The position numbers and the translations under genes are program-made. DNA of 64,000 nucleotides from the human T2T-CHM13v2.0 reference genome, Homo sapiens, in NCBI GenBank assembly GCA_009914755.4, contig CP068257.2:44448001-44512000 (forward strand), given 5' to 3'. Each line of letters begins with the position of its first letter. Positions within the stretch are counted from its first letter, which is position 1. Positions 50,652 to 50,940 of this stretch are shown here, piece after piece. The notes beneath the pieces were generated by a model, which saw only the letters and a list, made by a program, of their open reading frames with translations, was not told the origin of the DNA and did not search any database.

Positions 50652-50940
50652 GTAGGGGAGCAGGGTGGGCCGCACCCCAAGGTAGGGGATCTGAGGGGGT
50701 GCAGGGGGGCTGCACCCCAAGGTAGGGTGGCCAGGACTGCACCCCAAGGTAGGGGACCCGGGTGGGTGCTGCACCCCAAGGTAAGGGGGGCCCAGGTGAG
50801 GGCTATACCTCAAGGTAGGGGACCCAGGCGGGTGCTGCACCCCAAGGTAAGGGACCAAGGCAAGGGCTGCACCCCAAAGTAGGGAACCCAGGTGAGGGCT
50901 GCAACCCAAGATAGGGGTGCTTAGGCAGGGGCTACACCCA
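50652..50940. repeat. ~33-bp-unit minisatellite (x~9) immediately after exon 16, each unit ending in a donor-like caag|gtarggg
   Basis: …gcaccccaaggtaggggatctgagggggtgcaggggggctgcaccccaaggtagggtggccaggactgcaccccaaggtaggggacccgggtgggtgctgcaccccaaggtaagggggg…. Confidence 0.9.

What the first reader, a model, noticed from the sequence alone, without database searches (positions are those of the whole stretch)
50652..50940. Second donor-derived minisatellite: ~9 copies of '…caccccaag|gtarggg' directly after exon 16
Exon 16 ends …gccaag|gtagggg. The following ~290 bp is a ~33-bp-unit tandem array in which each unit recreates a donor-like 'caag gtagggg/gtaaggg'. Together with the intron-2 repeat this is a recurring architecture in this gene: a minisatellite seeded from the exon/intron junction, giving a run of decoy 5' splice sites.
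Basis: seen in the sequence. Interest (0 to 1): 0.55.

Follow-up and report, generated by a model that had tools for sequence, protein, structure and literature searches.

The report
Splice-donor-repeating minisatellite in COL6A2 intron 16
Right after exon 16 of the collagen VI alpha-2 gene, a primate-specific tandem repeat copies the exon/intron junction about eight more times, so the real splice donor is followed by look-alike donors; the same layout is already known from the factor VII gene, where only the first donor is used.

Summary
The window holds human COL6A2. Exon 16 (50589-50651, c.1333-1395) ends AAG|GTAGGG. From 50647, 5 nt inside the exon, to about 50940 lies a tandem array of 9 units (27-40 nt, most often 32).

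Four downstream units repeat the authentic 9-mer exactly. Two carry a stronger AAG|GTAAGG, one has AAA|GT, and one has lost the GT. Two further CAG|GTGAGG sites lie inside units.

The array is young. A great-ape-like ortholog has 11 units with turnover in the middle. Five contigs from non-primate mammals have a roughly 203-nt intron with no array. One other mammal has an unrelated array in the same intron.

Human contigs (more than 700) show a single length. A second array, in intron 2, also starts 5 nt inside its exon.

This layout is a described class: junction-spanning minisatellites in F7 IVS7, CBS, IFI6, LMNB2 and PDGFA. In F7, experiments showed that only the most upstream donor is used.

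My reading is a near-neutral junction duplication whose pseudo-sites stay silent because of their position. Splicing itself was not tested here. The COL6A2 case is a new member of a known kind, relevant mainly to interpreting c.1395+1/+2 variants.

The parts
50589..50651 (+). COL6A2 exon 16 (63 nt, phase 0, [21 protein letters not shown]; c.1333-1395)
50649..50657 (+). Authentic 5' splice site 9-mer AAG|GTAGGG (G of GT at 50652)
50647..50940 (+). Junction-spanning minisatellite: 9 units (H0-H8) of 27-40 nt (most often 32), with a 64-66 nt higher-order period. The first unit includes the last 5 nt of exon 16.
50679..50687 (+). Pseudo-site 1, AAG|GTAGGG, c.1395+31. Its use would add 30 nt in frame (VGEQGGPHPK).
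50719..50727 (+). Pseudo-site 2, AAG|GTAGGG, +70 nt, frameshift
50746..50754 (+). Pseudo-site 3, AAG|GTAGGG, +97 nt, frameshift
50778..50786 (+). Pseudo-site 4, AAG|GTAAGG (closer to consensus than the authentic site), +129 nt, in frame
50793..50801 (+). Secondary donor-like site inside unit H4, CAG|GTGAGG, +144 nt, in frame
50812..50820 (+). Pseudo-site 5, AAG|GTAGGG, +163 nt, frameshift
50844..50852 (+). Pseudo-site 6, AAG|GTAAGG, +195 nt, in frame
50876..50884 (+). Degenerate pseudo-site 7, AAA|GTAGGG (-1 G changed to A), +227 nt
50889..50897 (+). Secondary donor-like site inside unit H7, CAG|GTGAGG, +240 nt (an in-frame stop lies upstream of it)
50908..50916 (+). Dead copy 8, AAG|ATAGGG. 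The GT is lost in human but intact (GT) in the ape ortholog.
50941..51134 (+). Non-repetitive 3' part of intron 16, ending in the polypyrimidine tract and the acceptor AG. By eye it lines up with part of the roughly 203-nt array-less intron of other mammals.
51135..51197 (+). COL6A2 exon 17 (63 nt, [21 protein letters not shown])
41721..41955 (+). Second junction-spanning minisatellite: 62-nt unit, 3.8 copies, 97% matches. It starts with the last 5 nt of exon 2 and repeats CAG|GTGCCA at c.115+1, +63, +125 and +187.

Best explanation
This is a lineage-specific (primate) intronic minisatellite. It arose by tandem duplication of a roughly 30-nt segment running from -5 of exon 16 to about +25 of intron 16 of COL6A2. 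It then grew and turned over by slippage or unequal exchange, including duplication of 64-66-nt double units. Because the duplicated segment contained the whole 5' splice-site 9-mer, the authentic donor is followed by six intact pseudo-donors, plus two degenerate copies and two internal CAG|GTGAGG sites. The pseudo-sites are most likely silent or nearly so because the most upstream site wins. That is the behaviour shown experimentally for the equivalent F7 IVS7 array ('oriented scanning', acting together with exon definition). On this reading the array is a tolerated, near-neutral by-product of a minisatellite-prone GC-rich region. Its practical consequence is that loss of the authentic donor (c.1395+1/+2) should shift splicing to c.1395+31 and insert 10 residues in frame that break the Gly-X-Y repeat, possibly alongside exon 16 skipping. 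Shown here: the anatomy, the register, the identity of the 9-mers, the lineage restriction, and the lack of any predicted structural masking. Inferred: the mutational mechanism, the silence of the pseudo-sites, and the outcome of donor mutations.
For: Array and register: and 54 (in the ape, TRF starts the array 5 nt inside the exon).
Donor strength: four pseudo-sites share the authentic 9-mer exactly, so any model that reads only positions -3 to +6 scores them the same. Two have the consensus A at +4. On an approximate consensus-value scale the scores are 84 and 95.
Young age and turnover: the ape-like ortholog L001 (about 1.6% substitution divergence over 2.7 kb of flanks) has a 324-nt array against 277 nt in human. 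It has 11 units; units 0 and 2 are identical to the human ones, units 1 and 3 nearly so, and the middle is rearranged.
Absence elsewhere: five contigs from non-primate mammals (L002, L003, L008, L009 and L017) carry intron 16 without any array; the four complete introns are 203 nt and L017 is truncated. Their donor is AAG|GCAAGT.
Independent origin: L004 has an unrelated 28-32-nt G-rich array starting 14 nt after the donor. This points to a mutationally repeat-prone intron start rather than selection for donor copies.
Conservation within units: the conserved core is the 19-nt GCTGCACCCCAAGGTAGGG. The C-rich part outside the donor 9-mer is as conserved as the donor itself.
Accessibility: predicted opening energy of the 9-mer is 2.25 kcal/mol for the authentic site and 1.73, 2.05 and 2.12 for the +30, +129 and +195 sites, so position rather than masking has to explain the choice.
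Precedent: in F7 IVS7 the first monomer is 4 nt of exon plus 33 nt of intron. The pseudo-sites are functional but unused, pseudo-sites with a consensus value up to 91 do not compete, and a donor mutation activates the site in the second monomer.
Setting: the window is dense in minisatellites.
Against: No RNA data were available, so silence of the pseudo-sites rests on analogy only. In two of the precedents, IFI6 and CBS, the first two pseudo-sites are in fact used.
The +129, +195 and CAG|GTGAGG sites score higher than the strongest non-competing sites tested in F7. In F7, perfect sites did compete.
Two of the six arrays in the gene start at exactly -5 from a donor (post hoc P about 0.004). Pure neutrality with random placement does not predict this.
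The array shows no length variation in more than 700 human contigs. That is unusual for a freely evolving minisatellite, although 25% divergence between units would suppress slippage.
Confidence: 0.7

Rival explanations
1. The pseudo-sites are used at a measurable level, as an alternative 5' splice-site cluster like IFI6 or CBS. Minor COL6A2 isoforms would result. The +30, +129 and +195 sites would give in-frame insertions that interrupt the triple helix. The +70, +97 and +163 sites would give frameshifts with premature stops, presumably removed by nonsense-mediated decay.
For: The pseudo-site 9-mers equal or exceed the authentic site and are predicted to be equally accessible. In IFI6 and CBS the first two pseudo-sites are used constitutively. 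The reading frame stays open through the first seven units, up to 50882.
Against: A Gly-X-Y interruption in collagen VI is the classic disease mechanism, so substantial use would be harmful. [quoted passage not shown] No COL6A2 isoform or cryptic-site report for this intron was found in the searchable literature.
Confidence: 0.18
2. The array is a selected splicing enhancer. Tandem U1-binding sites and G-runs just downstream would help define the short 63-nt exon 16, whose donor is suboptimal. It would act like a built-in version of exon-specific U1 RNAs or of G-triplet intronic enhancers.
For: The authentic donor has non-consensus G at +4 and +6. The intron-2 donor CAG|GTGCCA is weaker still, with an approximate consensus value of 69, and it too carries an array. 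Both arrays start at exactly -5. The donor-containing core is the best conserved part of the unit in human and ape. The array has a single length in human contigs.
Against: Non-primate mammals keep exon 16, with an identical peptide, but lack the array. Their intron 2 lacks an array as well. Unit number and order differ between human and a close ape. The conserved core extends equally into the non-donor CTGCACCCC. The independent array in L004 contains no donor copies. The F7 study found no autonomous regulatory element in the neighbouring intronic sequence (heading of section 10).
Confidence: 0.08
3. The feature is not real: a chance similarity or an assembly artefact.
For: None found. The only weakness is that units match at just about 75%.
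Against: TRF scores are 222-240. The 19-nt core occurs 8 times against 0.04 expected. The same ORF through the array is seen on more than 700 independent contigs. An orthologous array exists in an ape.
Confidence: 0.01

Closest known systems
F7 (coagulation factor VII) IVS7 37-bp minisatellite (Borensztajn et al. 2006, PLoS Genet 2:e138, PMC1557585)
   Same: The first monomer spans the exon/intron boundary: 4 nt of exon plus 33 nt of intron in F7, against 5 nt plus about 25 nt here. The authentic donor is followed by identical pseudo-donors. Both donors are G-rich and suboptimal (TGG|GTGGGT, published consensus value 74; AAG|GTAGGG here). Unit sizes are similar (37 vs 32 nt), as are copy numbers (5-9 vs 9).
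   Different: The F7 array is a length-polymorphic VNTR with identical monomers. The COL6A2 array has diverged units (about 75% matches), no length variants in the human contigs seen, and two natural pseudo-sites that are stronger than the authentic site. Splicing behaviour was demonstrated experimentally for F7 and is only inferred here.
CBS IVS13 31-bp VNTR and IFI6 (6-16) intron 2 minisatellite (as summarised in PMC1557585)
   Same: These are junction-spanning minisatellites that reiterate the donor. From my own knowledge, CBS also lies in 21q22.3, like COL6A2.
   Different: In both genes the first two pseudo-sites are used in addition to the authentic donor. CBS has 15-20 repeats, IFI6 has 25 pseudo-sites, and CBS is polymorphic. 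Whether COL6A2 pseudo-sites are used is unknown.
LMNB2 100-bp and PDGFA intron 4 81-bp repeats (as cited)
   Same: The repeat reiterates the exon/intron junction, and only the authentic donor is used. The COL6A2 intron-2 array, with its 62-nt unit, resembles these longer-unit cases.
   Different: The units are longer and the copy numbers higher (10-18).
COL6A1 c.930+189C>T deep-intronic pseudoexon (PMC7321786, PMC10996746)
   Same: It is in the same gene family and shows the consequence of using an intronic donor: an in-frame insertion that disrupts Gly-X-Y, with a dominant-negative effect.
   Different: That donor is created by a mutation and defines a separate 72-nt pseudoexon. No repeat architecture was found in those papers. 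Here the GTs are already present in the normal allele.

Membership tests
Junction-spanning intronic minisatellite with reiterated 5' splice sites (F7 IVS7 type) | Head-to-tail tandem array with a unit of about 10-100 nt | tested here: met
   TRF period 32 (and 64), score 222-240; 8-9 copies
Junction-spanning intronic minisatellite with reiterated 5' splice sites (F7 IVS7 type) | The first monomer contains the exon/intron boundary, i.e. the last few exon bases plus the start of the intron | tested here: met
   The repeat family starts at 50647, 5 nt inside exon 16. TRF starts the ape array at L001:401, and the exon ends at 405. A chance 5-nt match has a probability of roughly 1 in 1000 (my estimate).
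Junction-spanning intronic minisatellite with reiterated 5' splice sites (F7 IVS7 type) | The authentic donor sequence is reiterated in downstream monomers | tested here: met
   Four exact copies of AAG|GTAGGG and two AAG|GTAAGG
Junction-spanning intronic minisatellite with reiterated 5' splice sites (F7 IVS7 type) | Only the most upstream donor, or the first few, is used in normal transcripts | not testable with these tools
   No transcript data were available. The annotated protein frame requires the first site.
Hypervariable minisatellite / VNTR | Copy-number polymorphism within the species | tested here: not met
   The 15 listed members of the P0121 cluster, on more than 700 human contigs, all end at the same array position. 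Only an A/G SNP at 50733 varies. The search returned no human length-variant cluster. Caveats: 11 cluster members were not listed, and short-read assemblies may collapse repeats.
Conserved intronic splicing enhancer (G-run or U1-binding type) | Conservation of the element across species that keep the exon | tested here: not met
   Exon 16 peptide is 100% conserved, but the array is absent in L002, L003, L008, L009 and L017 and is replaced by an unrelated array in L004
Structured RNA or known RNA family | Match to a curated covariance model at its gathering score | tested here: not met
   The best Rfam hit scores 24.9 bits against a gathering score of 45

The most novel reading that the evidence does not exclude
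The two COL6A2 arrays may not be accidents. One version is that they were retained because tandem U1-binding pseudo-donors just downstream of a weak authentic donor (AAG|GTAGGG; CAG|GTGCCA) boost recognition of the upstream exon. The other is that G-rich donor sequences, which resemble the classical minisatellite core, nucleate arrays, making 5' splice sites in GC-rich genes a mutational hotspot for junction-spanning minisatellites. Either version would explain why 2 of the 6 arrays in this gene start at exactly -5 from a donor and why F7 starts at -4.
Probability: 0.1. Interest if true: 0.6.

Novelty: new member of a known kind. Interest (0 to 1): 0.3.

Why it matters
There are three reasons.

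1. Clinical. COL6A2 is a gene for Ullrich and Bethlem muscular dystrophy. By analogy with F7, variants that destroy the exon 16 donor should activate the identical site at c.1395+31 and insert 10 non-collagenous residues in frame, rather than simply skipping the exon or abolishing the transcript. One such variant, c.1395+2T>C, is reported without RNA analysis. The outcome changes whether a dominant-negative or a loss-of-function effect is expected.

2. Mechanistic. The array is a natural test of the 'most upstream site wins' rule, because two pseudo-sites and two internal sites are stronger than the authentic donor.

3. Practical. The repeat is a trap for splice predictors, variant callers and ORF callers. 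The protein database already holds spurious 'proteins' translated through it.

Apart from these points it is an ordinary young minisatellite.

Tried and rejected
- MaxEntScan and SpliceAI are not installed. I used the fact that four 9-mers are identical, plus a position-weight matrix and an approximate consensus value built from position frequencies recalled from memory. On the F7 sites these values differ by 2-4 points from the published ones.
- RNA structure masking of the pseudo-sites was rejected, because predicted opening energies overlap.
- Known RNA families were checked and none reached threshold.
- I recalled that the COL6A1 intron 11 pseudoexon lies in a repeat. The three papers I read did not confirm this, so I dropped it.
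- COL6A2-specific literature on this repeat, on cryptic donors or on intron 16 yielded nothing relevant. The 'intron 16' hits all refer to COL6A3.
- Contigs carrying exon 3 from other mammals (L013-L016) stop before exon 16, so they informed only on intron 2.
- The IFI6 minisatellite paper is not held in the library.
- The species behind the Logan, ENA and JGI contigs could not be identified, and no Old or New World monkey sequence of intron 16 was obtained. The origin of the array is therefore bracketed only between 'non-primate mammals' and 'the human/great-ape ancestor'.

Full report
**What the window is.** The ORF at 61926-62639 is nearly identical to PDB chain 9gtu_B, 'Collagen alpha-2(VI) chain' (E = 1.4e-139). 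Pfam finds VWA domains and a collagen triple-helix repeat. Scanning for AG|(Gly-X-Y)n|GT segments and locating the non-collagenous exons gives a consistent exon chain. In it the 63-nt exon [21 protein letters not shown] lies at 50589-50651 and is exon 16, c.1333-1395, counting a non-coding exon 1. A published COL6A2 variant, c.1395+2T>C, confirms an exon boundary at c.1395. Intron 16 is 483 nt (50652-51134), and exon 17 is 51135-51197.

**The observation.** It holds.
- TRF reports a 32-nt period (6.7 copies, 75% matches, 50707-50917) and a 64-nt higher-order period out to 50939.
- The repeat finder gives eight copies at 50667-50931, plus a family whose reference copy starts at 50647, five bases inside exon 16.
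- Cut at each GT-equivalent, the array has nine units, H0-H8, of 30, 40, 27, 32, 34, 32, 32, 32 and about 35 nt.
- The authentic site AAG|GTAGGG recurs exactly at +30, +70, +97 and +163.
- AAG|GTAAGG, with the consensus A at +4, occurs at +129 and +195.
- H7 has AAA|GTAGGG and H8 has AAG|ATAGGG.
- Two further strong donor-like sites, CAG|GTGAGG, lie inside units at +144 and +240.
- The 19-nt core GCTGCACCCCAAGGTAGGG occurs eight times with up to 3 mismatches, nowhere else in the 64 kb, against 0.04 expected.

MaxEntScan could not be run. Its 5' model reads only positions -3 to +6, so the four identical 9-mers must score the same as the real donor. A position-weight matrix and an approximate Shapiro-Senapathy value (frequencies from memory, off by 2-4 points on the F7 controls) give 84 for the authentic site and 95 for the GTAAGG and CAG|GTGAGG sites.

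**Register with the junction.** Upstream of the GT, the exon (…GGAGCCAAG) and the unit consensus (…CACCCCAAG) share exactly CCAAG and then diverge. The first unit is therefore 5 nt of exon plus about 25 nt of intron. A 5-nt match by chance has a probability of roughly 1 in 1000 (my estimate). In the ape ortholog, TRF itself starts the array 5 nt inside the exon. 'Seeded from the junction' is therefore supported.

**The second array.** The intron-2 repeat (41721-41955; 62-nt unit, 3.8 copies, 97% matches) begins with the last 5 nt of exon 2 and repeats CAG|GTGCCA at c.115+1, +63, +125 and +187. Of the six arrays TRF finds between exon 2 and the last intron, two start at exactly -5 from the first intron base. 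With random placement, P is about 0.004. This test is post hoc.

**Evolution.** The protein database contains ORFs that were called straight through exon 16 and the array.
- The human ORF cluster (P0121) has 26 members. The 15 listed members lie on more than 700 contigs and all share the same end point. The only variation in the array is an A/G SNP at 50733. No human length-variant cluster was returned, so the array is not visibly hypervariable.
- One divergent ORF (P0123) led to contig L001 (Logan ERR1759394). Its flanks differ from human by about 1.6% over 2.7 kb, a level typical of great apes. Its array is 324 nt against 277 nt and has 11 units. Units 0 and 2 are identical to human, unit 1 lacks 10 nt, and unit 3 differs by one base. 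The middle units have been gained, lost or rearranged. The last unit still has its GT.
- ORFs through exons 17-18 and a degenerate DNA pattern led to orthologs from unidentified non-primate mammals. L002, L003, L008, L009 and L017 have an intron 16 of about 203 nt (truncated in L017), no tandem repeat, and a GC donor AAG|GCAAGT.
- L004 has a 432-nt intron with an unrelated 28-32-nt G-rich array. It starts 14 nt after the donor and does not reiterate it.
- Intron 2 is about 103 nt in L013 and about 150 nt in L014, without arrays.

Both human arrays are therefore young and lineage-specific. The start of intron 16 has produced arrays independently in two lineages.

**What is conserved inside units.** The best-kept part is the 19-nt GCTGCACCCCAAGGTAGGG. 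The C-rich half outside the donor 9-mer is as conserved as the donor itself, in both human and ape. This does not indicate selection on the donor motif specifically.

**Why the first site would be chosen.** Predicted local accessibility does not separate the sites. Opening energy is 2.25 kcal/mol for the authentic site, against 1.73 (+30), 2.05 (+129) and 2.12 (+195). All values lie within the range of other COL6A2 donors. No Rfam family matches.

**Comparison with what is known.** This architecture is already described. Borensztajn et al. 2006 (PMC1557585) studied the F7 IVS7 37-bp minisatellite, whose first monomer is the last 4 bp of exon 7 plus 33 bp of intron. The authentic TGG|GTGGGT is followed by 4-8 identical pseudo-sites. 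These are functional but unused. Pseudo-sites improved to a consensus value of 91 still do not compete, and only perfect sites (100) do. Inactivating the authentic site activates the next one, with more exon skipping as the distance grows. No autonomous intronic element or secondary structure explained the choice. The same paper lists IFI6 intron 2 and CBS IVS13, where the first two pseudo-sites are also used, and LMNB2 and PDGFA, where only the authentic site is used. COL6A2 is not mentioned there. I found no COL6A2-specific description in the searchable library.

**Explanation I commit to (confidence about 0.7).** This is a near-neutral, primate-specific tandem duplication of the junction segment in a minisatellite-rich GC-rich region. 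Its pseudo-donors stay silent, or nearly so, because the most upstream site wins.

The predicted consequences of using each site are as follows:
- c.1395+31 adds 30 nt in frame (VGEQGGPHPK) and breaks the Gly-X-Y repeat.
- +71, +98 and +164 shift the frame and reach a premature stop.
- +130 and +196 stay in frame, adding 43 and 65 residues.

By analogy with F7, donor-destroying variants such as the reported c.1395+2T>C (no RNA data) should use c.1395+31, perhaps together with exon skipping.

**Rivals.** Low-level or regulated use of the pseudo-sites, as in IFI6 and CBS, remains possible (about 0.18). The +129 and +195 sites and the CAG|GTGAGG sites are stronger than anything shown not to compete in F7. 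A selected enhancer role (about 0.08) is disfavoured by the absence of the array in other mammals, by turnover between human and ape, and by the donor-free array in L004. An artefact is excluded.

**Open oddity.** Both COL6A2 arrays start at -5, and F7 starts at -4. G-rich donors such as AGGTGGG and AGGTAGGGG resemble the classical G-rich minisatellite core (my own knowledge). Donors in GC-rich genes may therefore nucleate arrays. This is a hypothesis for a genome-wide scan and not a result of this work.

**Verdict.** The feature is real and was correctly read by the first stage. It is a new member of a known kind. Interest is modest, mainly for interpreting splice variants and as a natural test of 5' splice-site choice.

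Noticed in passing
L002:5822-6024, L003:5822-6024, L008:331-533, L009:294-496, L017:906 onward: In several non-primate mammals, COL6A2 intron 16 is a GC-AG intron (AAG|GCAAGT) of about 203 nt with no repeat. Human and ape have a GT donor, AAG|GTAGGG, at the same place.
   Followed up: partly
L004:493-804: An unidentified mammal (Logan SRR22354912) has an independent 28-32-nt G-rich tandem array in the same intron. It starts 14 nt after the donor and contains no donor copies. The 5' end of intron 16 seems prone to forming arrays.
   Followed up: partly
window 41721-41955: A very homogeneous array (97% matches) of 62-nt units, 3.8 copies, starts 5 nt inside exon 2 and repeats the weak donor CAG|GTGCCA three more times. 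It is absent from L013 and L014. Contigs L010 and L012 (97% identical exon 3) break inside its last degenerate unit, which hints that the array also exists in that species.
   Followed up: partly
window 50733: A common A/G polymorphism lies inside unit H2. It appears as R or G at residue 125 of the spurious ORF, with each allele on hundreds of contigs. It does not touch a pseudo-site.
   Followed up: partly
window 50361-50882 (+) and 50964-51890 (+): Long open reading frames run through introns, exons and the array. The public protein collection holds them as 'proteins' (the P0121 and P0138 clusters). They are artefacts of prokaryote-style gene calling on human DNA, but they proved useful as handles for fetching orthologous introns.
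   Followed up: yes
window 14368-15524; 20406-21579; 53194-53442; 53596-54404; 63561-64000: Several other large minisatellites are present: 60/128-nt units upstream of the gene, a 1.2-kb TGGTGATGG-type array, C-rich and GGAT-type arrays in the intron after exon 21, and a 47-nt unit with 9.5 copies at the window end. The region is unusually rich in minisatellites.
   Followed up: no
window 50153-50237: A 26-nt unit with 3.2 copies (86% matches) lies in intron 15, 225 nt from the exon 15 donor. It is unrelated to the intron 16 unit.
   Followed up: no
window 50733-50853: The array has a higher-order structure. The 55-nt blocks 50733-50787 and 50799-50853 are 89% identical, which indicates a later duplication of a two-unit (about 66-nt) block in which GTAGGG-type and GTAAGG-type units alternate.
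   Followed up: partly
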